Origin: Alphaproteobacteria bacterium
GTDB lineage: Bacteria; Myxococcota_A; UBA796; SXON01
Assembly: GCA_040376425.1 (NCBI GenBank)
Contig: JBEIQS010000004.1
Coordinates: 53,617 to 117,616 of the forward strand
Length of the DNA: 64,000 bases
Direction: 5' to 3'
The position numbers and the translations under genes are program-made. Shown here piece after piece: positions 40,607 to 52,644 of the stretch (its first letter is position 1; every line of letters begins with the position of its first letter). Under the pieces are notes generated by a model, which saw only the letters and a list, made by a program, of their open reading frames with translations, had not been told where the DNA came from and ran no database searches.

Positions 40607-41868
40607 CCGAACATCCCCTGCTTGCGGCGCTCGCCCGGGCAGGCATGAAGATGGGCCTCGCGCGCATGCGCTCCTACCTGGAGTGGCTGGGGAACCCCCA
40701 CCTTCAGTATCCGGTAATACATGTGGCCGGAACCAATGGCAAAGGCAGCGTATGCCGGATGGTGGGCGCCATCCTGGAAGAGCAGGGATTTAAGGTAGGT
40801 ATCACCACCTCCCCCCACCTGCAAGAAGTGAACGAACGTATTCGCATCGGTACGGCCCCCATCTCTGACGCCGACCTGGACAGCCTGCTGCGGCGGATGG
40901 ACACCGTGCGGCGGGCCTGGGCTTCCGCCGTGGTCGGACCTACCGAGGCCTTTCCGCTCACCTACTTCGAGTTCTCCACCGCCGCCGCTTTTCAGCATTT
41001 TGCCGATCAGAAGGTGGATGTGGCCGTGGTAGAGGTGGGCATGGGCGGAAGGCTGGATGCCTCCAACGTGTGTGCTCCCTTGGCCACGGCGATCGTGACG
41101 GTGGGGCTGGACCACACCGAACAACTTGGCCCGGATCACAGCTCGATAGCCGCGGAGAAAGCGGGCATCCTGAAGGCCGGGGTCCCTGCGGTCATCGGGC
41201 CCCTCAACAACCAGGCCCTGGCCGTGGTGCGGGCAGTGGCGGCAGAGCGGCAGGTACCCCTCCACCTCTACGGCGACAACTACCAGGCCCTGGGCTCCAC
41301 TGACTCCTTCCGCTACCAGGGGGAGGGGGTGGTGAGAGACTGCTTGCGCCTTGGCCTGCACGGCGATCACCAGGTCCACAATGCCGCGGTTGCTTTGCGG
41401 CTGATCGATCTGCTTCCAAGTTCCTTGCGTTGCGACGAAGACGCGATCCGTCGTGGGCTGGCCCGCGCCGAGAACAGCGGTCGCTTGGAGTGGGTGGCGC
41501 CCGATTTGCTGCTGGACGGCGCCCACAACCCGGATGGTGCACAGGTGCTGGCACACTACCTTGCGCGGCTGCCCAAAGATCGTCCGCGGGTACTGCTTCT
41601 GGGCGGCGGGACCGACAAAGATATCCGCTCCGTCGCAACGATTCTGGCTCCCGCGGTGGACAGGATCGTCGCCACCGCGGGTACACATGCCAAGGCGCGG
41701 AGCCCTGAAAATGTGGTTGCGGAGCTGGCGGGACTGCCGGTCGAGTCGGGTGGAATGGTGGGCAACGCCTTGAAGCTGCACCGGAACGGGAAAAACCTGG
41801 TGATTCTGGCGGGTTCGCTCTATCTGGTTGGGGAGGCGCGGGGACTGGTGGTCACAGGGCCGGCCTAG
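40603..41868 (+). CDS. folC: bifunctional folylpolyglutamate synthase / dihydrofolate synthase
   Basis: P-loop HVAGTNGKGS, VVEVGMGGRLDA, ITSIGLDH-like (VTVGLDHTE) and LLDGAHNPDG. Shows the conserved accD-folC synteny. Confidence 0.9.
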   Translation: MTEHPLLAALARAGMKMGLARMRSYLEWLGNPHLQYPVIHVAGTNGKGSVCRMVGAILEEQGFKVGITTSPHLQEVNERIRIGTAPISDADLDSLLRRMDTVRRAWASAVVGPTEAFPLTYFEFSTAAAFQHFADQKVDVAVVEVGMGGRLDASNVCAPLATAIVTVGLDHTEQLGPDHSSIAAEKAGILKAGVPAVIGPLNNQALAVVRAVAAERQVPLHLYGDNYQALGSTDSFRYQGEGVVRDCLRLGLHGDHQVHNAAVALRLIDLLPSSLRCDEDAIRRGLARAENSGRLEWVAPDLLLDGAHNPDGAQVLAHYLARLPKDRPRVLLLGGGTDKDIRSVATILAPAVDRIVATAGTHAKARSPENVVAELAGLPVESGGMVGNALKLHRNGKNLVILAGSLYLVGEARGLVVTGPA

Positions 41869-43607
41869 TGGAGCTGAAAGTCCAGGCGGATCGCATCGAA
41901 TGGGCCGCTGAGAGCGCCGTTGCCGAGGGGAATGTCTGGCTGATCTGGGGTGAGGAGCGGCTGGAGGCCCAGCGCGCAAGCTGGACACCCACCGGCTTGG
42001 TTCTGGAGCGTGGGCACTGGGAAAGAGCAGCAGAAAAGCTGAGTTTTGAGCGGGCGGAGATCCTGCTGCCCCCGGAGACGGTGATGCTGTACGAGGCCCG
42101 CCTGGACATCCAGGGGGCCTCGCTCGCTGCCGGCAGGCTGGAGCTGGGAAAAGAGCGGTGGGAGGGGGAGGATGCCACACTGGTGCCCTGCACCTGTACC
42201 GACGGCGGTCCGCCCGCGCTCAGCTTCTCCGCGCGCGCCTTTCAATTGCGGGCCCGACCCAGCGCTCCCGAAGAGCCGACGGTCCTCCTGCTCCAGGGCG
42301 GCATGGTTCGCCTGTTCCGCCTGCCGGTCCTGCCGCTGCCGGTGGCCCGCATCCCGTTGAACCCTCAACATTTCCGCCTCCACCTTCCTGAATTGGGCTA
42401 CGGCAGCAACGGCTGGTCTGCAGGGTGGTCCGCGCAGGGCGGCGTGGAGGGCTGGATGTTGGAGGGGGGCCCCACCTGGCGGCAGGATCGGGGCTTTGGC
42501 GCAGAGGTGAAGCTGGAGGGCCCCCGGCCCCCGGGCGAGCTGCGGGACACCGCCGCGCCGGTGCTGCAGGCACAGGGTGGTTGGGACCAGATCCAGGAAA
42601 AGTGGCGGGGAAGTCTGCAAAGCCGGGGGGGCTACACCTGGGATCGGCCCGAGTCGCGGTGGAGTCGCGGCGACAGCCGGCTGGCGTGGGACCTGGGCTT
42701 GGTCTCCGACCCCGGCTACACACAGGACTACGCCCCCGACTGGGTAGCCCGAGGGGTCCAATGGCAGGAACAACGAGGGCTGTTTGAGTCTGGGGCCACC
42801 AGCATCCAGGCCTGGCACAGCGACGATGGCTCGCCCGGACCGCTGCTGGTGGCCCAAAGTGGCCTGGAGCTGAGCCGACGCGACACGCTGCGACCCTCGC
42901 TGGGCCTGGCCTTGGAAGCCCAAGAAGAGGGGCTCCGGCCGGTGCCGCAGGCGGGCTTGGAGCTGGAGGGAGGGCGGACCCGCGGGCCGGTCCACGGGGC
43001 CGTGCAGGCAGCAGGGCTGGCGCAGCTTTGGGGTCTGGACGAGCTGCGGGGACAGGCGGCGGCCGAGGCGCAGGTGGATCTGTCGGTCTGGGGGCAGAGC
43101 CGGCGGCTTCGCGCGCTGTGGTGGCCCGGCCTGCGGATGCGGGGAGCCATTGGCGAAAAAGAGGCCTGGGGTCTGGGCCCCGGGGTGGATCTGCGCATCA
43201 ACGGACCAAATGCTCTGTTGATTGGAGAGGCGCGGCTCTTGTGGACCGAGAAGGGCTGGTCCCCGGAAGGGCGCCTGTGGCTGGATGTGGGCGACTTTTC
43301 CGCAGAGATGGAGCTGCAACCCGCGCAACAGCAGGTCCAGCTCCGATGGGATCAGGAGTGGCTGCAGTTGGGACTGGCCAGCCGGCGCAGTGATGCGGGC
43401 TGGCTGGCGCGGGCGGAAGGCGAGTGGTTGGTCAAGCGGCTGCGGCTGGGCTCCGACCTGGCCTGGGATTTTTATGCCCAGTCCTGGTCGGGCGCAGGTC
43501 TGGGGCTGGGCTACGACGACGGGTGCAGCCTCGCCATGCTGCGTGTGGGCTTTTCGCCGGATCGAAGCCTGCCGGATGTGGGTCTACGGGTGGAGCTGCG
43601 TCGTTGA
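41868..43607 (+). CDS. LptD/OstA-family outer-membrane protein (LPS-assembly-like)
   Basis: ORF 579 aa. OstA-like N-terminus (AEGNVWLIWGEERLEAQRASW), PCTC....PALSFSARAF and RLFRLPVLPLPVARIPL resemble LptD motifs. GTG start overlaps the folC stop. No obvious signal peptide. Confidence 0.5.
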   Translation: MELKVQADRIEWAAESAVAEGNVWLIWGEERLEAQRASWTPTGLVLERGHWERAAEKLSFERAEILLPPETVMLYEARLDIQGASLAAGRLELGKERWEGEDATLVPCTCTDGGPPALSFSARAFQLRARPSAPEEPTVLLLQGGMVRLFRLPVLPLPVARIPLNPQHFRLHLPELGYGSNGWSAGWSAQGGVEGWMLEGGPTWRQDRGFGAEVKLEGPRPPGELRDTAAPVLQAQGGWDQIQEKWRGSLQSRGGYTWDRPESRWSRGDSRLAWDLGLVSDPGYTQDYAPDWVARGVQWQEQRGLFESGATSIQAWHSDDGSPGPLLVAQSGLELSRRDTLRPSLGLALEAQEEGLRPVPQAGLELEGGRTRGPVHGAVQAAGLAQLWGLDELRGQAAAEAQVDLSVWGQSRRLRALWWPGLRMRGAIGEKEAWGLGPGVDLRINGPNALLIGEARLLWTEKGWSPEGRLWLDVGDFSAEMELQPAQQQVQLRWDQEWLQLGLASRRSDAGWLARAEGEWLVKRLRLGSDLAWDFYAQSWSGAGLGLGYDDGCSLAMLRVGFSPDRSLPDVGLRVELRR

Positions 43608-43636
43608 ACGATTGTTCAATCTTGAAAAACAGGCGT

Positions 43637-44362
43637 TCAGAATGGAAAACCAAGGATTACGCGGGCAGAGATTGGACCGCGCTCGGACTCCTCCCCGTAG
43701 CTTGCCACCGGAACCATCAGCGTACTGGCCATCCACCAATGTTGCTGGTTGAAGGCCAAGGCTGGCCCAAGGGCCAGCTCTCCGCCTTCAAAGCCCTGGT
43801 CCGGGGACAGGTGGTTCTCGTTTTCCAGCTCCAGCCCCAGGTGTACACCCTTGAAGACGCGCACCGACACCCCTAATTTGTTCTCGATCGCCGCCTCCAT
43901 TTCCAGATCGGGCTCGCCCGTCTCGTACTCCCACTCCACCTCGCCCACCAGGTTGTAGGCCACCAGAAGCGGGCCCTTGTCCAGATCCAGGATCACCTTG
44001 GCTTCCAGCTCGGTTTCCGAAGGCCCCGCCGACACTTCTCCATACAGAGCAAGCCCCACCGGTGCCACCGCGCGTCGCAGAAGATTCAGCTTCCACTCGG
44101 AAGAAATCCCGTCAAAGGACGCTCCAGAACGATCCGCAGACCAGTTGATGTAGAAGGCGGTAAGGAGGCGGTTGGAGATCGCCCACTCCAGCTCCATGCG
44201 GTTGGAGAGGGCAAGACCCTGGCGATCGGGCAGAAAGGTCACCGTCGCCCAGGGCTCCAGCTCGCGGGCTTCCTTCGGCATCACCAGGGAGTCGTAGGTA
44301 TGGGTAAAACGACGTTCGTTGGCGGACACATCGGGGAGCATGGAGAGAAGCAGTGGCAGCAT
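43637..44362 (-). CDS. hypothetical outer-membrane beta-barrel-like protein
   Basis: ORF 241 aa with alternating amphipathic strands and a terminal ...ILGFPF (C-terminal Phe). Confidence 0.45.
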   Translation of the reverse strand: MLPLLLSMLPDVSANERRFTHTYDSLVMPKEARELEPWATVTFLPDRQGLALSNRMELEWAISNRLLTAFYINWSADRSGASFDGISSEWKLNLLRRAVAPVGLALYGEVSAGPSETELEAKVILDLDKGPLLVAYNLVGEVEWEYETGEPDLEMEAAIENKLGVSVRVFKGVHLGLELENENHLSPDQGFEGGELALGPALAFNQQHWWMASTLMVPVASYGEESERGPISARVILGFPF

Positions 44363-44379
44363 GTATGATCCTTGAGAAT

Positions 44380-44398
44380 GATTTTGATTTTCATTATC
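44380..44398. promoter_or_regulatory. candidate Fur box GATTTTGATTTTCATTATC
   Basis: 15/19 identity to the classical Fur consensus GATAATGATAATCATTATC, by manual alignment. It lies in the only strongly AT-rich intergenic stretch (44363-44410), between the divergent OM-barrel gene and the rhomboid gene. Confidence 0.4.
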
Positions 44399-44469
44399 AT
44401 GATATCACGCGGACATGCCGCCGGCAAGCACCCGCTTCCCCCCACTATCCCCGTGCTTAAAATCCCCCG

Positions 44470-45174
44470 ATGTTCCCCATCCGCGACAACATCCAGAGCC
44501 GGCGATGGCCGGTGGTCAACCTGCTGATCATCCTGGTGAACGTCGCCGTTTTTGTAAACTATTTCAGCATGAGTGAGCGCGCCCTGGACCAGTTCATCCT
44601 GAGCTGGTCGGTGGTGCCCGAACGTTTCTGGGGCGCGTTGGACCGCCCGGCGCTGCTGCCGCTCCAGGTTGCCACGCTGTTCTCTGGGATGTTCATGCAC
44701 GGAGGGCTGCTGCACATCGCCGGAAACATGTGGTTTTTATGGATCTTCGGGGATAATATCGAAGATCGGCTCGGGCACCTGCGCTACCTGTTGTTCTACC
44801 TGGCCACTGGACTCATCGCCACCGCGTCCGAGCTTTTTGCCTCTCCCCACAGTGCAATTCCCATGCTCGGAGCCTCGGGCGCGGTGGCCGGGGTGCTGGG
44901 GGCCTACCTGTGGTGGTATCCGCGGGCGCGGGTGCAGACCCTGGTGCCGATTTTCATCTTTCTGCAGTTTATGGAACTTCCTGCGGTTCTTTTTCTGGGC
45001 CTTTGGTTCGTCATGCAGATTCTCGGTAGCCTGGGCGGGGAGGGTGGTGTGGCCTGGTATGCGCACATATTCGGCTTTATAGGTGGGCTATTGCTCTCCA
45101 TGCTCGCCACCCGACCGCCGCCTCGACCCATTCGCCCCCTCCCCGCATCGCGGAACATCTACCGACGGCGTTGA
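44470..45174 (+). CDS. rhomboid-family intramembrane serine protease
   Basis: ORF 234 aa. FMHGGLLHIAGNMWFLWIFG (HxxxN), GASGAVAGVLGAY (catalytic Ser) and YAHIFGFIGG (catalytic His). Confidence 0.85.
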   Translation: MFPIRDNIQSRRWPVVNLLIILVNVAVFVNYFSMSERALDQFILSWSVVPERFWGALDRPALLPLQVATLFSGMFMHGGLLHIAGNMWFLWIFGDNIEDRLGHLRYLLFYLATGLIATASELFASPHSAIPMLGASGAVAGVLGAYLWWYPRARVQTLVPIFIFLQFMELPAVLFLGLWFVMQILGSLGGEGGVAWYAHIFGFIGGLLLSMLATRPPPRPIRPLPASRNIYRRR

Positions 45175-45207
45175 TCCCCCTTCTTTCGGCTGTGATACAC
45201 TCTACCG

Positions 45208-46167
45208 ATGAACTCCGCACTGATGATTTTTCAAGAGAGCGGGTGGGGCGGCTACCTCCAGCTTGGGCTGGTCACTGTGGCGCTGCCGTGGACCCTGATC
45301 TGCGCCGTGTTGCTGGCCATGCGATGGAAAGTACCCGCCTTGATCGCGACGATACCGCTGGGTCTCCACGCCTTGGCGGCACTGGTCGCCCTGAGTGCCG
45401 CACAGAGCAACACCGTGGCCGCCGTACGAACGGTGGACGCCTCCGCTCGGGCCGCGATCCTGGCACAGGGCATGGCCGAGGCACTTGGAAGCGGAGTTTT
45501 ACTTGCCTTCGTCCTTCCCTCGGCCATGGTGGTGGGGCTGGGAGGGGCCATCGGCGGGGTGCGGGGAAGCCGGAGCTTCGGAGCCCCGGTCCTCGCTTTT
45601 CTGGTTTGCGGGTTGATCGCGGTCTTTCCCGTCGCCGAGCTGCTGTATGAGGGGAGCATCGCCTCCATCGGACTCCGCCTGCTGATGTATGGCACCGGGG
45701 CCGTGGTCGTGACCGCCTCGATGCTTGGAAACGACGGGAAGGTGGGCGCCCGCGAGTCTTCTCTCAGCACAGCGTTGAGCTTTTTTGTTGTGGTCAGTGC
45801 CTGCGAGATCGTGGTCGGTTCCATGGAGTGGCGGCAGTTGTTCAGCGCGCTCGCGGGCATGTCCGGCGAGGGGCGGGCGGCGATGGCTGAGTACCTGGAG
45901 CCCACCCACACGCGAACCACGCTGCGATGGGTGGCGATGTTCCTGGCTATTGTGCCGGTTATCATCGCATGGCTGCGCCCCTCGGTTGAGCGGACGGAAG
46001 AGCAGATGCTGAACGAGCCCGACCCCGAAACACCCCTGCGTGGCGCCGCACACTTGTTTGCCCTTGGCCTGATCCCCCTGTGGCTGGCCGTGGCCTGGTC
46101 GGCGGATGTCAGCGAGCAGGTAGAGAAGGCCCTTGCCGCCTCGGCCCGCTCCAGCGGCACTGAGTGA
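45208..46167 (+). CDS. hypothetical polytopic membrane protein
   Basis: ORF 319 aa with about 8 hydrophobic helices. GC content is like the flanking core genes. No recognisable family. Confidence 0.45.
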   Translation: MNSALMIFQESGWGGYLQLGLVTVALPWTLICAVLLAMRWKVPALIATIPLGLHALAALVALSAAQSNTVAAVRTVDASARAAILAQGMAEALGSGVLLAFVLPSAMVVGLGGAIGGVRGSRSFGAPVLAFLVCGLIAVFPVAELLYEGSIASIGLRLLMYGTGAVVVTASMLGNDGKVGARESSLSTALSFFVVVSACEIVVGSMEWRQLFSALAGMSGEGRAAMAEYLEPTHTRTTLRWVAMFLAIVPVIIAWLRPSVERTEEQMLNEPDPETPLRGAAHLFALGLIPLWLAVAWSADVSEQVEKALAASARSSGTE

Positions 46168-46223
46168 GCCCTCATTCATTTTTTGGGTGGGGATAAGCCC
46201 GGTTTTTTCGGACACCCGCAAAG

Positions 46224-46252
46224 GCGCGTGCGGCGAGGAACGCCGCAGGCGC
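46224..46252. other. GC hairpin (12-bp stem, one mismatch, loop AGGAA) in the leader of the ATPase gene
   Basis: GCGCGTGCGGCG-AGGAA-CGCCGCAGGCGC read from the sequence. It is preceded by unusual T-runs (46178-46183, 46203-46208). It could be a terminator of the upstream gene or an island boundary. Confidence 0.3.
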
Positions 46253-46297
46253 CCGGGTGGGAATCTCCATAGTGTCAGGCTATGAGGGGAGGCCGCT

Positions 46298-47647
46298 ATG
46301 GAACAGGGAGGGAGGATGAGCACACCGGAAGTCTATGGACCTACTCAGGTACACACGATTCGGGTCAGCAATTTTCGCTGCTTTCGCTCTTTGTCTTTGG
46401 ACTTCCACCCAGAGTTGACCGTTCTCACGGCGGGGAATGGCGGCGGCAAGACCGCGGTGCTGGATGCGGTCGCGAAGGGGTTGGCGGTTTTTGTGCTCGC
46501 CGCCGAGCGGGTCAGGCTCTACACAAGGCTGTCCCCCGGAGATGTTCTCCGGCAGTTCTTCAGCGACCTGTCCACGTGGGAGAATAGACCTCCGACCAGA
46601 ATTGACCTCAGTTGGCGCCACGAAGGCACGAAGCTGGTGACAAGCCTGCTGCTGGAGGTGGTGGAGTCCACCGAAACTCAGTACCCTTCCAACGACGCCC
46701 TCCGACTGCTCGGTGATCAGGCCAACCAGAAAGTGGGTGAAAGAAGCTGTATATTTCCGCTGGTCGCCTACTACGGAACGGCACGTTTGTGGGGGGAAGG
46801 GGACTTCCAGCAGAACAACCCGGAGCACCTGGACGGGAGTGACCGGCTGAAGGGATATCGGAGCTGCCTGGAGCCAACCTCCGGCTACCAGTTTTTGGAA
46901 CAATGGTTCAAGAATCGTTGGTTCCTTGCGCGCGGTGGGGATGAACGTGCGGATACAGCTTTGAAGGCGGTGAAGGCTGCGGTCCGGAGCTGCCTTCAAG
47001 ATGCGGGATGGGGAGACATCGACTGGGACCCTGTGGAGAACACCCTCCGGGTGGAACACCGTGGTCGTGGCTGGTTCCCCATCGCCTATACCAGCGATGG
47101 AATCACCAATATCGTCGGCCTCGTTGCCGACCTCGCCCACCGCTGTGTCCGCCTCAACCCGCAATTCGGCGCGGAAGCCGCCCAGAAAACCCCGGGCATC
47201 GTGCTCATCGACGAAGTGGACATGCACCTGCATCCGGAGTGGCAGCAGACCATCCTTGGTTCGCTGCGCGAGGCATTTCCGTTGATTCAGTTTATTGTAA
47301 CGACGCATAGTCCTCAGGTGTTGAGTACGGTGCGCCGCGAGAACATTCGTGTGCTCTCCGAGAGGGCGGACGGCGAATTTGTGGCGGCGATCCCGCTCAC
47401 CAATACCTATGGGGAGCCCAGCAACGACGTGATGCAGGGGGTGATGGAGGTGGATCCGCAGCCGCCAGTTCCCGAAAAAGCGGCGTTGCAGCGCCTGACG
47501 GAGCTGGTGGACCAGGGGCACTACCGGAGTCCCGAAGCGGAAAAGCTGATGCAGAGCCTGGAAGTCGCCCTCGGTATCCATCCGCAGCTTGCACGCCTGC
47601 ACCGCAGCATTCGGCGGCAGGAAGCCCTGGCCGGGCGACGGGAATGA
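46298..47647 (+). CDS. ABC/SMC-type AAA ATPase, PtuA-like (Septu/retron-associated ATPase family)
   Basis: ORF 449 aa. N-terminal IRVSNFRCFRSLSLDF, Walker A LTAGNGGGKTAVLDAV, Walker B/D-loop GIVLIDEVDMHLHPEWQ, and FIVTTHSPQVL (H-loop). Has the AAA_15/AAA_21-type architecture. SD GGGGAGG lies 5 nt before the ATG. Confidence 0.75.
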   Translation: MEQGGRMSTPEVYGPTQVHTIRVSNFRCFRSLSLDFHPELTVLTAGNGGGKTAVLDAVAKGLAVFVLAAERVRLYTRLSPGDVLRQFFSDLSTWENRPPTRIDLSWRHEGTKLVTSLLLEVVESTETQYPSNDALRLLGDQANQKVGERSCIFPLVAYYGTARLWGEGDFQQNNPEHLDGSDRLKGYRSCLEPTSGYQFLEQWFKNRWFLARGGDERADTALKAVKAAVRSCLQDAGWGDIDWDPVENTLRVEHRGRGWFPIAYTSDGITNIVGLVADLAHRCVRLNPQFGAEAAQKTPGIVLIDEVDMHLHPEWQQTILGSLREAFPLIQFIVTTHSPQVLSTVRRENIRVLSERADGEFVAAIPLTNTYGEPSNDVMQGVMEVDPQPPVPEKAALQRLTELVDQGHYRSPEAEKLMQSLEVALGIHPQLARLHRSIRRQEALAGRRE

Positions 47648-48363
47648 GGTCGATCCAGAAACGTGGCGGAGGTGGCTATTCTCTGCGGAAAAGCCATGAC
47701 GATCCTCCACAGACACCGGATGAGGCTACCAGCCGATGGAAGAGCTTCTCCGGCAAGGCGCAGGTGCTCCAGTCTCTCCTGGAGGAACAGTACGCACTTT
47801 GTTGCTATAGCGAACTGCGCCCTGACCGGGAGGGGCTGGGCTACCACATCGAGCATGTGGAGAACAAAAGTCAGAACCCTTCTCGAACATTTGACTACGG
47901 GAATCTGGCCGCCAGCGCGCCGCATAGCGATGACCTTGCGACACTTGCGGCGGAAGGAAGAGATGTGTTTGGGGGTCATGCACCGGGCAAACAGAAGGCG
48001 GTGGATCTCCATCAATTTGTGTCCTGCCATCAGCCGGACTGCGCGCGTTTTTTTGCCTATGACTCTTATGGAAGAGTGACTCCTGCGATCGGCCTGGACC
48101 CCGCAGAGAAGGCGCGGGCTGAATACACCATCGGTCTTTTGAACTTGAACAGCTCCTATCTGGTTCCCCTCCGGAAGCGGTGGTGGGACGAACTGGAGCG
48201 CCTGGTGGATCAACATCTTCACGACGACTGGGATCTGGAAGAGCTTGCGGCGGTGGATCTGGTACCTTCTCACCAAAAACTCTCCCCCTTCTTCAGCATC
48301 ACCCGCCAGATTTTTGGTCCGGTCGCTGAAAAGGTGCTGCGGGAGCGCGCTCCGGAACGTTGA
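47644..48363 (+). CDS. HNH-type nuclease-like protein, PtuB / TIGR02646-like
   Basis: ORF 239 aa with an ATGA overlap with the ATPase gene. QYALCCYSELRPDREGLGYHIEHVENKSQNPSRTFDYGNLAAS resembles the C-x-Y-[CS]-E ... H-I-[ED]-H ... N-L core of the TIGR02646 HNH family. Confidence 0.65.
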   Translation: MRSIQKRGGGGYSLRKSHDDPPQTPDEATSRWKSFSGKAQVLQSLLEEQYALCCYSELRPDREGLGYHIEHVENKSQNPSRTFDYGNLAASAPHSDDLATLAAEGRDVFGGHAPGKQKAVDLHQFVSCHQPDCARFFAYDSYGRVTPAIGLDPAEKARAEYTIGLLNLNSSYLVPLRKRWWDELERLVDQHLHDDWDLEELAAVDLVPSHQKLSPFFSITRQIFGPVAEKVLRERAPER

Positions 48364-48367
48364 TGGT

Positions 48368-48622
48368 CTACCTCCTCACAACCTCCACCTCCACATCCTC
48401 CCCCGCCTCCTTCTTCCCCCGAATCTTCTTCGGCACCGGCAGCAGCGTCCCGTGCGTTTTGTCGCGCCAAACACTGGTTTCCCAGGTCTTGCCGTCCACC
48501 GTGGCCAGGACCGGCGTGCGTCCCCAGCCTTCGGTGACCGGCGGCGCCAGCGCGGCGGGCACCGGCGCAAAGGTCCAGCCTCCCGGGCCCGGGTAGCGAA
48601 AAAGTACCGCCTTGAAGGCCAT
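48368..48622 (-). CDS. DUF1905-domain protein
   Basis: 84-aa C-terminal part of ORF 48368..48856(-). MAFKAVLFRYPGPGGWTFAPVP...VLATVDGKTWETSVWRDK..GTLLPVPKKIR is the DUF1905 pattern. TGATG 1-nt overlap with the upstream gene stop. Confidence 0.6.
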   Translation of the reverse strand: MAFKAVLFRYPGPGGWTFAPVPAALAPPVTEGWGRTPVLATVDGKTWETSVWRDKTHGTLLPVPKKIRGKKEAGEDVEVEVVRR

Positions 48623-49134
48623 CAGTACGGTGCGTCGTGGTGGTGGTCCTTCTTCTCCCGCCCGGCCTCCTTCTTCTTTCGGCCCTTCTGCACCTTTCGC
48701 CACTCCGTACGGACCAACAGGGCTGCAGCCAGGTCGTCCTGCGCGGGTAACATAAAGATGCGACCCTCGATCCCAAAAACCTGGGCCTGTTTCTTCACCG
48801 GAAACATCGCCTGCGCGTAGCCCCCGTACAGGGTGCCGCCCGCGCCGATGCCCCACATGCCCCCCAGGCTGAAGTTGCTGTTCCCAAAACCGAGACCCAG
48901 CTCAAGCTGGGCCGGCGCACTCAGGCTGCGGGTGCCCCACTCCGATGCCAGCAGGCCGCTGAAGGAGAAGCCCACCCACCCCTCGATGGGGCCAAAGCGA
49001 TTCTTCAGCTCTCCCGCCACCATCGGCGAATAGCTGGTGTAGGCGCGGCCGTGGTCGTAGCCCGAAGACAAAGCGCCCCCCAGGGCGAGAGCACCCTGGG
49101 GGGCAGCGAGTGCAGCACCAAGGAGGAGCATCAT
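48622..49134 (-). CDS. hypothetical small outer-membrane-like protein with Lys-rich tail
   Basis: ORF 170 aa. Signal peptide MMLLLGAALAAPQGALA, Gly/aromatic beta-strand pattern, and a C-terminal KVQKGRKKKEAGREKKDHHHD tail. Confidence 0.4.
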   Translation of the reverse strand: MMLLLGAALAAPQGALALGGALSSGYDHGRAYTSYSPMVAGELKNRFGPIEGWVGFSFSGLLASEWGTRSLSAPAQLELGLGFGNSNFSLGGMWGIGAGGTLYGGYAQAMFPVKKQAQVFGIEGRIFMLPAQDDLAAALLVRTEWRKVQKGRKKKEAGREKKDHHHDAPY

Positions 49135-49174
49135 GCGCTCAGTCTAAGCGCCCGACCCCCTCCTGAGAAGAGCC

Positions 49175-51928
49175 TCAGTAGGTGAACTGCAGCGACGCGC
49201 GGATCGAGCGCGGCGCCTGACGGTACATCACCTTACCGAAGGAGGCTCCTTCGTTCTCGTAGTAGTTTATCGGGGTGCTCAGGTCCAACAGGTTGAAGAT
49301 GTCGATACCCAGCTCGATCTCCCGCTCGTTGCCCAGATCGTAGGCCCCCGCCAGACGCAGATCCAGGTAGTTGGTCACCGGCATCATCCGGCTTCCACGA
49401 CCTTCGGGGAACGCATAGTAGTCGTCGTACAGCGACACGTAGCCGCGCTTCTGCCAGGCATGCCCGGAGTCCAGCTCGTAGATCAAACCGCCGGTCAGGT
49501 CCAGCTTCTTGATCTCCAGGGTGTAGCTACCGTTCACCTTCACCGAGTGGAAGGAGTGGTAGGGCAGGTAGCCGTAGTAGCCCGCGTCGTCGGTCTCCGT
49601 TCCCAGCCCGGCCAGACCCTCCAACAGCCAGCCCATGCCGCTGTCGAAGAAGCCCTCGCGGGCGTCCATGTCGTTCACGTCGTCCAGGTACACACCCACC
49701 TGGTTACCGTCGGACCCAAAGGAACCGCCGGAGGAAAGCTCAAACTGACCGGGTGTGTGACCCTTGGCTTCCGACAGCGTGTAGCTGGCGAGAAGCTGCC
49801 AGTTGTCGGCATACTTCTTCTGTACGGTGAGTTCGACCGCCCGGTAGTCGCGCCACTTGTTGTCCGGGTTGCCGATGAAGAACTGGTCGGCGTCCACGTC
49901 GATATCCTCGGCCAGACCGGAGGTCTTGGAGAGGATACCGCGTGCTCCCACGGAGAAGTTCCGGAAGAGCTCCCGCTCGAAGCCCACTGCGAACTTGTCC
50001 ACATGGAAGGGGGTCAGGTTCTCGTCGACCGTGGCGGGGTTTCCAGAGGGATCCTGCACCCACACCAGATCGTAGCCGCCAGTGTCGGGGTTGAAGCGGT
50101 ACTGCCGGTAGGAGTAGGCCGAGCGGGTATCGCCCCAGTCGGCGAAGCCGTTGCCCACCACGTCGTAGTAGCGACCGTAGTTCGCGGTGAGCTTGGTCCG
50201 GGAATCGCGGGTCACGTCCCACACCATGCCGAGACGCGGAGAGAACATCCAGGAGTCCAGGAACAGATCCCCGGCGTTCTGGTAGATGCCTTCGCGGTCC
50301 ACGCGCACGCCGATGTTCATGGTGACCGGGTCTACCGGCTGCCAATCATCCTGGAGGTAGAAGGTGAATACGTCGGTGTGGTGCCCCAGCGGACCCACTT
50401 CGTTGTACTCCGTGTAGCCGTAGCAGTCCGCGTAGTCGGGGGCCGTACAGGGCAGACCCGAGTCGGGGCTGGCCACGTACTTCACGCCGCCATCCGGGCC
50501 GGTGTAGACCAGCTCGCGCTGGTCGGCCAGGCGCCAGATTTCCGCGCCGGCCTTGATCTTGTGGCTACCCGTGCTGCCGTCGAAGAGGCGGGTCACCGAG
50601 GCCATTCCGCCCAAACGACCCCGATCGTTGAGGTCGAAGTCTGAGTGATTGCCCGAGTAGGCGCCGGTGTCCAGGTTGAAAATGGTCGGTGCTTCTTCGT
50701 CGCCGGAGGCGGGGACCACGTCGATGGAGCTGTTCCACCACATGCCCTTCAGGTCGATCTCGGTGAAGGCATCGGGGCGCCACCGGAACTGCAGCAGGTG
50801 GCTGAGGCTGCTGCTCTCGTAGTCCGAGAGGGCAGCTTCGTTGACCAGCGGACCCACGTTGTAGTTGGGGATCACGTTGTAGTCGCCGGCGACCTTGTAG
50901 GACAGCGACACGTCAGGAGTGATAAACCAGGTCAGACGCCCGAAAGCGGCAATGCTGGTGAGCTCCTGAGACAGGGTGCTGCCGTCGGCGGCGGGCTTGG
51001 TCCCCTCGGGGGTCAGGCTGGAGTAGCCGAAGTCTACCCCGCCGAAATACCACAGCTTCTCCTTCACGATCGGGCCACCGGCCGCCAACGAAACGTCGTG
51101 GGACAGGAACTTGGCCTTCGCCGTCTCCACCTCTTCGCTGGTCTCGGTGTCCAGGATCAGGTAGGTCTTCTTGAAGCTGGCGTTCGTGGAGATCCCGTAG
51201 TACACCGAGCCGAAGTGCTCGTCGCCACCGTCCTTGGTGACGACGTTCACCAACATGCCGGTGAACTCACCGAACTCGGCGGGTGCGCCGTCGGTGTACA
51301 CCTGGATGTCTTCGATAGCCTCAAAGGGCAGGTTCACCGCGAAGGTCTTGGTAGACGGGTCGCGGGTGGAGGTGCCGTCGACCAGGATGTTGTTCCCGTA
51401 CTGGCCTTCGCCGCGTACGGAGGGGTTGCCATCGCCACCGCCGCCGTCCTGGGTATTGACGCGTCCAGAGATGCCGGGGAGCATGTTGACCGCATCCTGG
51501 TAGGAGCGACCGGTGGGCAGATCCCGGAGCATCTCTGCGGAGATTTCGGTAGAGAACGAGGAACGGGTGGTATCCACCACCGGCAGCTCGGCCACCACCA
51601 CCACCTCTTCCGAGGCGTTGAGCTTCATGACCACGGGCACAAAGACCGTGCCGTCGATGGACACCGTGACCGTGGTGCGCAGGGGCGCCATACCGGCCAT
51701 GGTGACCACCAGCGTGTGGGTACCGCTGGGGACGGAGGGGAAGCGGAAGTTCCCTTCGGCATCGGTCTTTGCGGCCAGCTCGCCTGCAATGTCCCGGCCG
51801 GTCAGGGTGACAACGGCACCGGGCACTTCAATGCCGGTATCGTCCTCCACGTGCCCGCGCACCGCACCGGTGGTCGCCGCCTGAGCCATGTCAACAAAAA
51901 GAGGATTCAGCAAAAAGAGCGCGATCAT
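49175..51928 (-). CDS. Oar-like TonB-dependent receptor (carboxypeptidase-regulatory-like domain plus plug plus barrel)
   Basis: ORF 49175..51964(-), starting at MIALFLLNPLFVDMAQA (ATGA overlap with the upstream gene). GAVRGHVEDDTGIEVPGAVVTL...DAEGNFRFPSVPSGTHTLVV (CarboxypepD_reg), LPGISGR...GNPSVRGEGQYGNNILVDG (plug), and a terminal ...SLQFTY. Confidence 0.8.
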   Translation of the reverse strand: MIALFLLNPLFVDMAQAATTGAVRGHVEDDTGIEVPGAVVTLTGRDIAGELAAKTDAEGNFRFPSVPSGTHTLVVTMAGMAPLRTTVTVSIDGTVFVPVVMKLNASEEVVVVAELPVVDTTRSSFSTEISAEMLRDLPTGRSYQDAVNMLPGISGRVNTQDGGGGDGNPSVRGEGQYGNNILVDGTSTRDPSTKTFAVNLPFEAIEDIQVYTDGAPAEFGEFTGMLVNVVTKDGGDEHFGSVYYGISTNASFKKTYLILDTETSEEVETAKAKFLSHDVSLAAGGPIVKEKLWYFGGVDFGYSSLTPEGTKPAADGSTLSQELTSIAAFGRLTWFITPDVSLSYKVAGDYNVIPNYNVGPLVNEAALSDYESSSLSHLLQFRWRPDAFTEIDLKGMWWNSSIDVVPASGDEEAPTIFNLDTGAYSGNHSDFDLNDRGRLGGMASVTRLFDGSTGSHKIKAGAEIWRLADQRELVYTGPDGGVKYVASPDSGLPCTAPDYADCYGYTEYNEVGPLGHHTDVFTFYLQDDWQPVDPVTMNIGVRVDREGIYQNAGDLFLDSWMFSPRLGMVWDVTRDSRTKLTANYGRYYDVVGNGFADWGDTRSAYSYRQYRFNPDTGGYDLVWVQDPSGNPATVDENLTPFHVDKFAVGFERELFRNFSVGARGILSKTSGLAEDIDVDADQFFIGNPDNKWRDYRAVELTVQKKYADNWQLLASYTLSEAKGHTPGQFELSSGGSFGSDGNQVGVYLDDVNDMDAREGFFDSGMGWLLEGLAGLGTETDDAGYYGYLPYHSFHSVKVNGSYTLEIKKLDLTGGLIYELDSGHAWQKRGYVSLYDDYYAFPEGRGSRMMPVTNYLDLRLAGAYDLGNEREIELGIDIFNLLDLSTPINYYENEGASFGKVMYRQAPRSIRASLQFTY

Positions 51929-52644
51929 TGGGCGGCTCCGTAGATCAGCTTGAAGTCGGTACAAGCGTAGGCGGTGTCCCCAGTATCAGGGGGAGGACAG
52001 GGCGCGCCGGCCAGGGTGTTGCCGTCCGCGTCCACCAGGGTCAGGTAGTATTGCCCGTCCGCGGGGACCGCGGGGGCCACAAAGCTGGCGCTGGCGGTGC
52101 CACAGTTGGAGGTGAGGGCGATGTCGCTACCGACCGCCGTGCCCGTGCTGTCCAGAATGCGCGCTTTGACGGCGGCCGCGTCCAGACCGCAGCCACCCAG
52201 GCTGATGGAGCTGCCCGCGGTGACGCCTTCGCCGGGACCGTAGCTCTCCAGGTAGCCCAACGCCGGACACTCGACGTAGTAGTAGGCTCCCGAGCCGGTG
52301 ATCACATCCTCTTTCCCACCGGTGCGCACGGTCACGTCCTGGTAGCCCTTGCCCAGCAGGCTGGGGGGAACAATGCCGTTGACCAGGAAGCCCTTGTCGA
52401 TCTCTTCGGTGGCGCCGGTCAGGCTGCTGACCTTCTGATCGCCGATGTACACCTCGATGTCGTCACCAAAGCCGCGCCCGGTAACGGTGACCGCCGTGCA
52501 GCCATCCACCCAGCCGTAGATCGGACGAATGGACACCGCATCAAAGGTGTTGTTCGAGCAAGATGTTCCAAGAAGAAGCGCCGCTGTCAGCAGCAGCCCG
52601 GCTGTCCGGGATTTGCCCGGATGTGAAGCAGAAGTGGGGACCAA
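51925..52644 (-). CDS. IPT/TIG-domain lipoprotein
   Basis: Inner part of ORF 51925..53319(-). TTG start at 52644 sits 7 nt after a strong SD, AGGAGG, giving (M)VPTSASHPGKSRTAGLLLTAALLLGTSC (lipobox). IYGWVDGCTAVTVTGRGFGDDIEVYIGDQKV is IPT-like. Confidence 0.6.
   Translation of the reverse strand: MVPTSASHPGKSRTAGLLLTAALLLGTSCSNNTFDAVSIRPIYGWVDGCTAVTVTGRGFGDDIEVYIGDQKVSSLTGATEEIDKGFLVNGIVPPSLLGKGYQDVTVRTGGKEDVITGSGAYYYVECPALGYLESYGPGEGVTAGSSISLGGCGLDAAAVKARILDSTGTAVGSDIALTSNCGTASASFVAPAVPADGQYYLTLVDADGNTLAGAPCPPPDTGDTAYACTDFKLIYGAAQ

What the first reader, a model, noticed from the sequence alone, without database searches (positions are those of the whole stretch)
46298..48363. Low-GC two-gene ATPase + HNH module (Septu/PtuAB-like) wedged between core genes
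Two translationally coupled genes share an ATGA overlap at 47644-47647.

Gene 1 (449 aa) is an SMC/ABC-type ATPase. It has Walker A GNGGGKT, Walker B VLIDEVDMHLHP and TTHSP.

Gene 2 (239 aa) carries CCYSE...HIEHVENKSQNP...YGNL. This resembles the TIGR02646-type HNH core found in PtuB and retron-associated nucleases.

By eye, both genes are clearly less GC-rich than their flanks, with many A/T-ending codons. An unusual T-rich tract and a 12-bp hairpin (46224-46252) lie upstream. The stop is only 4 nt from the convergent DUF1905 gene, which is consistent with a compact horizontally acquired defense islet.

Three features are atypical. No RT/ncRNA, methylase or integrase is nearby. The second half of the HNH-like region lacks the usual Cys pair (NLAASAPHSD...GGHAPGK). 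The ATPase is short. It may therefore be a divergent subtype rather than canonical Septu.
Basis: partly seen in the sequence, partly recalled or inferred. Interest (0 to 1): 0.72.

Follow-up and report, generated by a model that had tools for sequence, protein, structure and literature searches.

The report
Standalone Septu defence operon, mosaic nuclease
The two genes are an ordinary member of the known Septu (PtuA ATPase plus PtuB HNH nuclease) anti-phage system; the one unusual point is that a close relative has, at the same locus, a different nuclease together with the part of the ATPase that holds it.

Summary
Window 46316-47647 (+) encodes PtuA and 47644-48363 (+) encodes PtuB of a standalone (type I) Septu system. 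Both proteins match PADLOC PtuA/PtuB profiles end to end (E = 5.7e-134 and 2.7e-117). Both also match the solved Septu PtuA-PtuB complex (PDB 8EE4/8EE7) over full length (E = 8.6e-98 and 1.5e-77).

The features called atypical are normal for this subtype. The solved Septu PtuB also lacks the second Cys pair, standalone PtuA is about 450 aa, and no RT or ncRNA is expected. It is therefore not a divergent subtype.

It is also not a fresh insertion. All three available relatives carry a Septu operon directly after the same membrane-protein gene and a strongly conserved leader hairpin.

The new point is a mosaic. Against relative L004, the PtuA ATPase head is 80% identical, like the flanking genes. 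The PtuA linker/C-terminal domain (31%) and PtuB (about 24-29%) are replaced by another Septu subtype. The junctions fall at the invariant TTHSPQVLSTV block and at the stop of the convergent DUF1905 gene. The exchanged piece is the published PtuA-PtuB contact unit.

Low GC is clear only for PtuB. Overall this is a known system of low to moderate interest.

The parts
46168..46315 (+). Conserved leader between the stop of the 319-aa membrane-protein gene and the PtuA start. It contains a terminator-like hairpin plus T-run (46183-46202, then TTTTTT), a GC-rich hairpin (stem 46213-46263; invariant 31-nt core 46223-46253) and a purine-rich ribosome-binding region.
   Evidence: It is 91% identical to L004 over 149 columns. 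A control intergenic region is 67% identical, and third positions of neighbouring genes are 55-71% identical. The hairpin core is invariant in the window, L004 and L104. It occurs once in the window and in none of 101 other loci. There is no Rfam hit. Fold z-score is -3.1. A terminator-like site was found. Function is inferred, not shown.
46316..47647 (+). ptuA: ABC/SMC-type ATPase of standalone Septu. It is 443 aa from the conserved ATG at 46316; an in-frame ATG at 46298 would give 449 aa. In 449-aa numbering: Walker A GNGGGKT at 46433-46453 (Lys51), Walker B VLIDE at 47201-47215 (Asp305/Glu306), H-loop TTHSP at 47300-47314.
   Evidence: PADLOC PtuA PDLC00310, E = 5.7e-134, residues 17-446 on profile positions 2-439 of 443. 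PDB 8EE4_A PtuA, E = 8.6e-98, residues 20-447 on 5-463. Pfam AAA_15, AAA_21 and SMC_N are above cut-off. Motifs located. Start codon evidence.
46316..47338 (+). PtuA ATPase head (aa 7-347 in 449-aa numbering). This is the part inherited with the genome.
   Evidence: It is 80% identical at the amino-acid level to L004 and 91% to L104. Third-position identity to L004 is 0.59, within the 0.55-0.71 range of the flanking genes.
47339..47647 (+). PtuA linker plus C-terminal domain (aa 348-449). This is the PtuB-binding part, and it is of the same type as the solved Septu PtuA.
   Evidence: It is 31% identical to L004 but 61% on average (maximum 69%) to 118 other PtuAs whose heads are only about 40% identical. 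The boundary maps to the ATPase/linker boundary (residue 442/443) of Retron-Eco7 PtuA, using the +92/93 offset and the domain map in PMC12673091.
47644..48363 (+). ptuB: HNH (beta-beta-alpha-Me) nuclease of the zinc-finger-less standalone Septu subtype. Predicted catalytic His71 (47854-47856) and Asn87 (47902-47904). The last roughly 80 aa form the helical domain that binds the PtuA CTD.
   Evidence: PADLOC PtuB PDLC00357, E = 2.7e-117, residues 1-238 on profile positions 1-238 of 240. PDB 8EE7_C PtuB, E = 1.5e-77, residues 1-237 on 1-240. NCBIfam TIGR02646, 81.4 bits against a cut-off of 52.15. The His-to-Asn spacing of 16 equals that of H75/N91 of Septu EcB88 (PMC13096335). Cys positions.
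47332..48372 (+). Exchanged cassette (about 1.04 kb): PtuA linker/CTD plus all of PtuB. The left junction is at 47332-47350, right after the codons for FIVTTHSPQVLSTV. The right junction is at about 48365-48372, in the last codons of the convergent DUF1905 gene.
   Evidence: Window-versus-L004 DNA identity is 0.62-0.94 to the left, 0.31-0.56 inside and 0.67-0.88 to the right. L004's DUF1905 C-terminus differs.
48368..48640 (-). Convergent DUF1905 gene. It is not part of the system but marks its right boundary.
   Evidence: Pfam PF08922, E = 1.6e-18. It is 83% identical in L004 and absent from the right flank of L104.

Best explanation
This is a chromosomal, standalone (type I) Septu anti-phage operon. 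PtuA is an ABC/SMC-like ATP-binding protein and PtuB is an HNH nuclease.

By homology to the solved Septu complex, PtuA dimers are expected to assemble into a hexamer. In it, two dimers each clamp one PtuB between their C-terminal domains, giving a 6:2 complex. ATP bound to PtuA keeps the nuclease quiet. Phage infection, through a fall in ATP or a phage trigger, releases the HNH activity. That activity then cuts nucleic acid and stops phage production. The substrate reported differs between studied homologs: DNA in one, tRNA-Tyr in another.

The operon is probably transcribed from its own promoter and leader, which carries a strongly conserved hairpin. The two genes are translationally coupled through the ATGA overlap.

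In evolutionary terms the operon is a long-term resident of this locus in a freshwater MAG lineage. Its 3' kilobase (PtuA linker/CTD plus PtuB) is a cassette exchanged by recombination at the invariant H-loop block of ptuA. As a result, this lineage pairs its own ATPase head with a zinc-finger-less nuclease of the same type as the solved Septu PtuB, while relative L004 pairs the same head with a zinc-finger, retron-like PtuB.

Shown: family membership, intact motifs, operon structure, the mosaic and its junctions, co-variation of tail type and PtuB type, and purifying selection. Inferred: complex stoichiometry, ATP gating, substrate, direction of the exchange and the role of the leader.
For: Family identity:
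- Full-length PADLOC PtuA and PtuB hits.
- Full-length hits to PDB 8EE4 and 8EE7.
- TIGR02646 above its cut-off.
- Walker A, Walker B, H-loop and the HNH His/Asn are intact. The equivalent residues are essential for defence in Septu EcB88 (PMC13096335).

Mechanism, from the literature:
- A 6:2 complex that cleaves DNA, and inhibition by ATP (PMC12640716; PMC12673091).
- The PtuB CTD is held by a pair of PtuA C-terminal extensions (PMC12819146).
- Linker and CTD residues form salt bridges with PtuB (PMC12673091).

Residency at the locus:
- The operon lies downstream of the same membrane-protein gene in the window, L004 and L104.
- Third-position divergence of the head equals that of the flanks.

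Mosaic:
- DNA identity profile and junctions.
- Head 0.80 against tail 0.31. In 252 homolog pairs with heads 0.8-0.9 identical, tails are 0.75 +/- 0.08 identical, with a minimum of 0.59.
- The PtuB proteins are 29% identical and belong to different PADLOC subfamilies, PDLC00357 and PDLC00358.
- Tail type and PtuB type co-vary in 57 of 64 operons where both could be typed; the 7 discordant calls rest on weak scores.

Not an assembly artefact:
- Independent contigs L003, L001 and L002 (99.94-99.97% identical) span both junctions.
- P0001 is a 99% identical full-length PtuA from another assembly.
- L104 has the same chimera.

Functional constraint:
- dN/dS is 0.12 for the head, 0.19 for the tail and 0.26 for PtuB between the window and L104.
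Against: - There is no experimental evidence for this locus. Defence, trigger and substrate are transferred from homologs with about 40% (PtuA head) to at most 65% (PtuB) identity.
- Those homologs disagree among themselves about substrate (DNA or tRNA-Tyr) and about whether ATP is hydrolysed or only bound.
- No sigma-70-like promoter was found upstream, so the transcription start is unknown.
- Only three genomes of the lineage are available, so 'always occupied' rests on n = 3, and no empty site was seen.
- The direction of the exchange rests on an unbootstrapped NJ tree and on composition.
- The neighbours are not defence genes, so there is no defence-island context to add support.
Confidence: 0.9

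Rival explanations
1. The ancestral state is the window's arrangement (zinc-finger-less tail plus PtuB), and L004 is the recombinant that imported a zinc-finger PtuB cassette. The mosaic is real, but the direction is the opposite of the one I favour.
For: - The window's head-to-tail relation to the 118 'W-set' homologs (head about 0.40, tail about 0.61) is exactly what ordinary divergence within that subfamily gives.
- L004's PtuA tail has the lowest GC3 of its operon, 0.61.
- Two of three lineage members carry the W type.
Against: - On a head-only NJ tree of 221 PtuAs, the window+L004 clade is nested in a 38-leaf clade with 30 L-type, 6 unclear and 2 W-type tails.
- The nearest outside heads, P0122 and P0121, carry L-type tails.
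- The window's PtuB has the lowest GC3 of 48 genes.
- Between the window and L104, the W cassette has dS 0.23-0.24 against 0.56-0.66 for the flanks. The cassette is therefore younger than the genomes that carry it.
Confidence: 0.3
2. The whole two-gene module is a recent horizontal insertion (a defence islet) into this strain, between a membrane-protein gene and DUF1905.
For: - GC and GC3 are lower than the window mean, significantly so for PtuB.
- The closest PtuA and PtuB homologs with names come from Beta- and Gammaproteobacteria, whereas relatives of the flanks are labelled Myxococcota or Deltaproteobacteria.
- Spacing to DUF1905 is tight.
- Distant relatives (TonB receptor about 50% identical) have no PtuAB within 10 kb.
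Against: - L004 and L104 both have a Septu operon at the same position, behind the same leader.
- Silent-site divergence of the PtuA head matches the flanks.
- There are no integrase, transposase, tRNA or flanking direct repeats.
- At about 50% identity, synteny around the receptor gene is lost anyway, so absence there is uninformative.
Confidence: 0.08
3. The pair is the effector half of a type I-A retron (Septu type II) whose RT and ncRNA were lost or lie elsewhere.
For: - NCBIfam names TIGR02646 a 'retron system putative HNH endonuclease'.
- The retron Ec78 PtuA and PtuB models give partial hits.
- PADLOC ATPase_I-A and HNH_I-A also hit.
Against: - The retron PtuA equivalog scores 249 bits against a 500-bit cut-off and aligns only to residues 218-442. 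The retron PtuB equivalog scores 72 bits against 150.
- PADLOC standalone PtuA and PtuB profiles score far higher than the I-A profiles (445 against 256 bits; 389 against 113 bits).
- PtuA is 443 aa and lacks the N-terminal and coiled-coil parts of the roughly 550-aa retron PtuA.
- There is no RT in the neighbouring genes and no Rfam hit.
- PtuB lacks the four-Cys zinc finger of retron PtuB.
Confidence: 0.02
4. The chimeric ptuA is an assembly artefact that joins two co-occurring strains at the conserved TTHSPQVLSTV block.
For: Two ENA contigs of the same sample break inside ptuA at 47439-47457, about 100 nt right of the junction.
Against: - Contig L003 reads through the left junction by about 120 nt.
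- L001 and L002 read through the right junction.
- An independent Logan assembly gives a 99% identical full-length PtuA (P0001).
- L104, from a different JGI sample and about 10% diverged, has the same head-tail-PtuB combination.
Confidence: 0.02

Closest known systems
Standalone Septu PtuA-PtuB complex, PDB 8EE4 / 8EE7 / 8EEA (Li et al. 2024, as cited in PMC12640716 and PMC12673091)
   Same: - Two-gene ptuA-ptuB operon.
- Full-length sequence matches: E = 8.6e-98 for PtuA and 1.5e-77 for PtuB.
- Same Walker A, Walker B and H-loop; same HIEHVENKSQ.P...NLAASA...FGGHA.GKQ core.
- PtuB has no four-Cys zinc finger, and PtuA has no coiled-coil insertion.
- The expected mode of action is therefore also the same: a 6:2 assembly with an ATP-inhibited nuclease.
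   Different: - The PtuA ATPase head is only about 40% identical and, on a head-only tree, groups with heads that normally carry the other tail/PtuB type.
- The host is an uncultured freshwater lineage rather than E. coli.
- Nothing here has been tested experimentally.
Septu EcB88 (PMC13096335)
   Same: Same architecture. The residues shown there to be essential (Walker A Lys, Walker B Asp, HNH His and Asn 16 residues apart) are all present here.
   Different: [quoted passage not shown] Whether the window's system targets tRNA or DNA cannot be told from sequence.
Type I-A retrons Ec78/Eco7 and Ec83/Eco4 ('Septu type II')
   Same: Homologous PtuA ATPase core and PtuB HNH/CTD. The PtuA-CTD to PtuB-CTD contact is the same.
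   Different: There is no RT, ncRNA or msDNA here. PtuA lacks the N-terminal and coiled-coil domains, and PtuB lacks the zinc finger. The retron equivalog models are not reached. The cassette at the same locus in relative L004 is closer to this type, with HNH_I-A at 182 bits and four Cys.
Other ABC-ATPase plus nuclease defence pairs (Gabija GajAB, OLD nucleases, PARIS AriAB)
   Same: An ABC/SMC-like ATPase controls a nuclease. Nucleotide-gated activation is a shared theme (PMC12819146).
   Different: Those nucleases are TOPRIM, not HNH. Sequence similarity is marginal, with OLD and AriA at E = 4e-06 to 9e-05 over short stretches.

Membership tests
Septu, standalone / type I (PtuA + PtuB) | PtuA: an ABC/SMC-like ATPase that matches PtuA profiles over full length. 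| tested here: met
   PADLOC PDLC00310, E = 5.7e-134, residues 17-446 on profile 2-439 of 443. PDB 8EE4_A, E = 8.6e-98. Pfam AAA_15, AAA_21 and SMC_N above cut-off.
Septu, standalone / type I (PtuA + PtuB) | PtuB: an HNH nuclease of the TIGR02646 type that matches PtuB profiles over full length. | tested here: met
   PADLOC PDLC00357, E = 2.7e-117, residues 1-238 of 240. TIGR02646, 81.4 bits against a 52.15 cut-off. PDB 8EE7_C, E = 1.5e-77. There is no Pfam hit, as is also the case for the homologs.
Septu, standalone / type I (PtuA + PtuB) | ptuA and ptuB are adjacent, on the same strand and in this order, with no RT. | tested here: met
   ATGA overlap at 47644-47647. The neighbours are a membrane protein and DUF1905. 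No Rfam family was found.
Septu, standalone / type I (PtuA + PtuB) | Catalytic and nucleotide-binding residues are intact: Walker A Lys, Walker B Asp/Glu, H-loop His, and the HNH His and Asn. | tested here: met
   K51, D305/E306, H337, and H71/N87. Their essentiality in homologs is reported in PMC13096335 and PMC12819146.
Septu, standalone / type I (PtuA + PtuB) | PtuA6:PtuB2 assembly with an ATP-inhibited nuclease. | not testable with these tools
   Inferred only from homology to 8EE7/8EEA and from conservation of the PtuA CTD and PtuB CTD.
Septu, standalone / type I (PtuA + PtuB) | Confers resistance to phage. | not testable with these tools
   This needs expression and phage challenge. The only indirect support is purifying selection, dN/dS 0.12-0.26.
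Type I-A retron (Septu type II: ncRNA-RT-PtuA-PtuB) | A reverse transcriptase gene and msr/msd ncRNA next to ptuA. | tested here: not met
   The upstream genes are a rhomboid protease and a membrane protein. There is no Rfam hit at gathering threshold in 64 kb, nor at E <= 10 in 46100-46400.
Type I-A retron (Septu type II: ncRNA-RT-PtuA-PtuB) | A retron-type PtuA (about 550 aa, with NTD and coiled-coil) and PtuB that reach the NCBIfam equivalog cut-offs. | tested here: not met
   NF041760 PtuA scores 249 bits against a cut-off of 500 and covers only residues 218-442. NF041761 PtuB scores 72 bits against 150.
Type I-A retron (Septu type II: ncRNA-RT-PtuA-PtuB) | A four-Cys zinc finger in the PtuB HNH domain (C43/C46/C78/C90 in Eco7). 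| tested here: not met
   The window's PtuB has Cys only at 53, 54, 128 and 133, and reads NLAASA where the retron type has NLFGSC. L004's PtuB does have the four Cys.
Gabija / OLD / PARIS (ABC ATPase + TOPRIM nuclease) | A TOPRIM nuclease domain or partner, and significant similarity to GajA, OLD or AriA. | tested here: not met
   Only short P-loop or signature-region matches were found, at E = 4e-06 to 9e-05. The partner is an HNH nuclease.

The most novel reading that the evidence does not exclude
Septu is built from two naturally exchangeable modules. The nuclease PtuB travels together with the PtuA linker and C-terminal domain that clamp it, as a cassette of about 1 kb. The cassette recombines at the invariant H-loop block (TTHSPQVLSTV) of ptuA. 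A lineage can thereby keep its ATPase head, promoter and leader while switching between a zinc-finger (retron-like) and a zinc-finger-less nuclease, possibly changing substrate or escaping phage inhibitors.

The window, L104 and L004 would be a caught-in-the-act natural example. The cassette's lower silent divergence between the window and L104 (dS 0.23-0.24 against 0.56-0.66 for the flanks) suggests it has spread by recombination within the lineage. About 6 switches of tail type on a head-only tree of 221 PtuAs suggest the exchange recurs across bacteria.

The invariant leader hairpin could be a dedicated regulatory element of the resident operon.
Probability: 0.55. Interest if true: 0.45.

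Novelty: new member of a known kind. Interest (0 to 1): 0.3.

Why it matters
As a Septu operon it adds little. The family is catalogued, structurally solved and found in thousands of genomes.

Its modest value lies in the three-way comparison. That comparison gives a natural, domain-precise chimera of a Septu ATPase head with a different PtuB-binding tail and nuclease. This supports the structural model in which the PtuA CTD and PtuB form a self-contained unit. It suggests that effector swapping can happen in place by homologous recombination, without mobile elements. It also offers ready-made designs for chimeric PtuA/PtuB experiments addressing why some PtuAB cut DNA and others tRNA.

The conserved leader hairpin is a candidate regulatory element for a system whose transcriptional control is undescribed.

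Tried and rejected
- Exact-sequence look-up of the 449-aa PtuA found nothing. The source assemblies break inside the gene, and other callers use the 443-aa start.
- Rfam found nothing, either at gathering threshold on the whole window or at a permissive threshold on the leader. There is no retron ncRNA or known leader family.
- No tRNA was found, no sigma-70-like promoter and no flanking direct or inverted repeats that would mark an insertion. An integrative-element explanation was dropped.
- PADLOC on ten neighbouring proteins found nothing, and Pfam on ten neighbours shows housekeeping or envelope genes. This is not a defence island.
- The genome-collection scan with the TonB receptor gave one close relative, L004. 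Seven relatives at about 50% identity share only the receptor and its upstream neighbour, so they are uninformative for an empty site.
- The metagenome scan with the PtuA head found no close relative of this head (all at most 43% identical). Those loci were reused as a panel for tail/PtuB co-variation.
- I first suspected that the window's tail was foreign because it is 61-69% identical to homologs whose heads are 40% identical. Calibration on 6,903 homolog pairs showed this ratio is normal for the subfamily, so that argument was dropped. Direction now rests on the head tree, composition and dS.
- A tblastn search with PtuB found no plasmid match. The only match in the phage collection is a Salmonella chromosomal contig. 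No mobile vehicle was identified.
- The primary structure paper (PMC12318543) is not held. Its conclusions are quoted second-hand from PMC12640716, PMC12673091 and PMC12819146.
- The hairpin core is invariant, so a covariation test was impossible.


Full report
**1. What is in the sequence**

Two co-oriented ORFs lie at 46298-47647 (449 aa) and 47644-48363 (239 aa) and overlap by ATGA.

- PtuA: GNGGGKT (aa 46-52), VLIDEVD (aa 302-308), TTHSP (aa 335-339).
- PtuB: CCYSE (aa 53-57), HIEH (aa 68-71), GNL (aa 86-88), GGHAPGK (aa 110-116).

The convergent ORF ending 4 nt downstream is a DUF1905 protein (E = 1.6e-18). The hairpin at 46224-46252 is real and unique in the window. The T-rich tract is the tail of a terminator-like hairpin at 46183-46202 that follows the upstream gene's stop. 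A 478-aa ORF on the opposite strand (46280-47716) is a shadow ORF of the kind common in GC-rich DNA; all homology evidence lies on the + strand.

**2. Composition**

The window has 64.4% GC. Measured against 47 other genes:

| Gene | GC | z | GC3 | z | Rank from low |
|---|---|---|---|---|---|
| PtuB | 0.574 | -2.5 | 0.621 | -3.5 | lowest GC3 of 48 |
| PtuA | 0.606 | -1.3 | 0.722 | -1.2 | 6 of 48 |

A leave-one-out codon-adaptation index gives z = -1.4 for PtuA and -1.65 for PtuB. 'Clearly less GC-rich' therefore holds for PtuB only.

**3. Identity**

- PADLOC: PtuA matches PDLC00310 at E = 5.7e-134 (residues 17-446 on profile 2-439 of 443). PtuB matches PDLC00357 at E = 2.7e-117 (residues 1-238 of 240).
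- NCBIfam: TIGR02646 is passed (81.4 bits against 52.15). The retron Ec78 equivalogs are not reached, with PtuA at 249 against 500 bits and PtuB at 72 against 150 bits.
- PDB: the best matches are the standalone Septu proteins. 8EE4_A PtuA gives E = 8.6e-98 (residues 20-447 on 5-463) and 8EE7_C PtuB gives E = 1.5e-77 (residues 1-237 on 1-240). Retron PtuA and PtuB lie far behind.

The four-Cys zinc finger is a feature of retron-type PtuB (C43/C46/C78/C90 in Eco7; PMC12673091). This subtype simply lacks it. Homologs number in the thousands: 3,981 PtuA hits at E <= 1e-30 and 678 PtuB hits at E <= 1e-20, mostly 433-491 aa and 235-246 aa respectively. The pair is therefore canonical type I Septu and not a divergent subtype.

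**4. Context**

The window comes from a lake metagenome lineage. ENA contigs from ERZ17175169 and ERZ17175179 are 99.94-99.97% identical to it.

The neighbours are FolC-like ligase, two unknown proteins, a rhomboid protease, a 319-aa membrane protein, DUF1905, an unknown protein, a TonB-dependent receptor and a CHAP peptidase. None hits a PADLOC model. There is no tRNA, no Rfam family, no integrase and no flanking repeats. This is a solitary system and not part of a defence island.

**5. Relatives**

Using the TonB receptor as an anchor, one close relative was found: L004, a Lake Erken MAG with the receptor 94% identical. More distant relatives (47-54%) have lost synteny. A third relative, L104 (JGI 3300081717), was found through an 88% identical PtuB.

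All three carry ptuA-ptuB directly downstream of the membrane-protein gene. Other features differ:

- L004 lacks the rhomboid gene and its neighbour.
- L104 has a different right flank.

The PtuA head in L004 shows third-position identity of 0.59, within the 0.55-0.71 range of the flanking genes. The operon has therefore been at this locus since before these genomes diverged. It is not a recent insertion in this strain.

**6. The mosaic**

Window-versus-L004 DNA identity is 0.62-0.94 from 45200 to about 47330. It falls to 0.31-0.56 from about 47350 to 48360 and returns to 0.67-0.88 at about 48365.

| Segment | Window vs L004 (aa identity) | Source |
|---|---|---|
| PtuA head (aa 7-347) | 80% | |
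| PtuA tail (aa 348-449) | 31% | |
| PtuB | 29% over a local alignment; about 24% globally | |

Junctions:

- The left junction (47332-47350) directly follows the codons for FIVTTHSPQVLSTV, the best-conserved block of the family.
- The right junction lies in the last codons of DUF1905, whose C-terminus differs in L004. This explains the 4-nt stop-to-stop spacing.

L004's cassette is a different Septu subtype. Its PtuB matches PDLC00358, scores 182 bits on HNH_I-A and has four Cys.

For calibration, 252 pairs of other PtuAs with heads 0.8-0.9 identical have tails 0.75 +/- 0.08 identical, with a minimum of 0.59. The value of 0.31 is far outside that range.

The chimera is not an assembly artefact. 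Independent contigs span both junctions, an independent assembly gives a 99% identical full-length PtuA, and L104 has the same combination.

**7. Why this boundary makes sense**

In Retron-Eco7 PtuA, the ATPase domain ends at residue 442 and is followed by a linker (443-483) and a CTD (484-550). E471, D521, K526 and R533 form salt bridges with PtuB (PMC12673091). A pair of PtuA C-terminal extensions sandwiches the PtuB CTD in a nine-helix bundle (PMC12819146).

With the +92/93 offset, window residue 348 corresponds to Eco7 residue 440-441. The exchanged piece is therefore the linker, the CTD and PtuB, which together form the complete contact unit.

Across 70 other operons, tail type and PtuB type agree in 57 of the 64 where both could be typed. 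The 7 discordant calls all rest on weak scores.

On a head-only NJ tree of 221 PtuAs, tail type changes 6 times, against about 69 for shuffled labels. Exchange is therefore rare but recurrent.

**8. Direction of the exchange**

- The window+L004 head clade is nested among L-type heads: a 38-leaf clade contains 30 L, 6 unclear and 2 W.
- The nearest outside heads carry L-type tails.
- The window's PtuB has the lowest GC3 in the window.
- Between the window and L104, dS is 0.23-0.24 for the cassette, 0.40 for the head and 0.56-0.66 for the flanks.

I therefore favour import of the zinc-finger-less cassette into the window/L104 sub-lineage, followed by spread through recombination. I put this at about 0.6. 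The tree is unbootstrapped and only three genomes are available.

dN/dS values of 0.12, 0.19 and 0.26 (head, tail, PtuB) indicate purifying selection, so the chimera is probably functional.

**9. Mechanism (inferred from homologs)**

- ATP binding inhibits the nuclease, and lowered ATP on infection is proposed to activate it (PMC12673091).
- A phage tail fibre has been named as a sensitiser (PMC12819146).
[quoted passage not shown] It requires Walker A K43 and Walker B D316 of PtuA and H75 and N91 of PtuB (PMC13096335).

The equivalents here are K51, D305, H71 and N87. The substrate of this system cannot be predicted from sequence.

**10. The leader**

The 148-nt leader (46168-46315) is 91% identical to L004, against 67% for a control intergenic region. 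Its 31-nt hairpin core is invariant in all three relatives. It is found nowhere else in the window or in 101 other loci, and it has no Rfam match.

It may be a 5'-UTR structure or a palindromic operator. With no variation in the core, covariation cannot decide between these.

**11. Verdict**

This is a correct first-stage call on a well-known system. The 'atypical' features are typical of standalone Septu. The added value is a natural, domain-precise exchange of the nuclease cassette, plus a conserved leader. Novelty: new member of a known kind. Interest: about 0.3.

Noticed in passing
window 46168-46315 (hairpin core 46223-46253): The leader upstream of ptuA is much more conserved than neutral sites: 91% identical to L004, against 67% for a control intergenic region. 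Its 31-nt GC-rich hairpin core is invariant in three relatives, has no Rfam match and occurs nowhere else in the window. It is a possible regulatory RNA structure or operator of the Septu operon.
   Followed up: partly
window 47439-47457: Two ENA contigs of the same sample (L003 ending at 47457, L001 starting at 47439) break inside the PtuA tail, about 100 nt right of the recombination junction. This may reflect strain-level polymorphism in the population, or it may only be an assembly effect.
   Followed up: no
window 43637-45174 vs L004 10122-10220: The close relative L004 lacks the 241-aa unknown gene and the rhomboid protease gene. They lie between the 579-aa protein gene and the membrane-protein gene in the window and in L104. 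This is a 1.6-kb indel just upstream of the Septu locus.
   Followed up: partly
L104 5199-5498: In L104, homology to the window stops right after the ptuB stop. The right flank encodes a convergent membrane protein unrelated to anything in the window, in place of DUF1905, the 170-aa protein and the TonB receptor. The 3' end of ptuB is thus a repeated rearrangement boundary.
   Followed up: partly
window 46298 vs 46316: The ATG at 46298 used by the gene caller, which has a good GGGGAGG Shine-Dalgarno 5 nt upstream, is not conserved in L004. The ATG at 46316 (MSTPEV...) is shared by L004 and L104, so PtuA is probably 443 aa.
   Followed up: yes
window 46280-47716 (-) and other long antisense ORFs in 41865-52626: Long ORFs run antisense to real genes, for example 478 aa opposite ptuA and 487 aa opposite the 579-aa gene. 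They are typical shadow ORFs of GC-rich DNA. Their frames lack the high-GC3 signature, and no homology supports them.
   Followed up: partly
window 48381-48429 and 48647-48689: Short CT-rich direct repeats lie at the 3' ends of the DUF1905 gene and the 170-aa gene. On the coding strand they encode Glu/Lys/Gly-rich C-terminal tails. This is a low-complexity feature shared by the two adjacent genes.
   Followed up: no
L102 1-9507 (Logan SRR28926444): The nearest outside PtuA head with an L-type tail (P0121) sits in a denser defence-like cluster. The PtuA-PtuB pair there is followed by a DUF1156 protein and a second AAA_15/AAA_21 ATPase.
   Followed up: no
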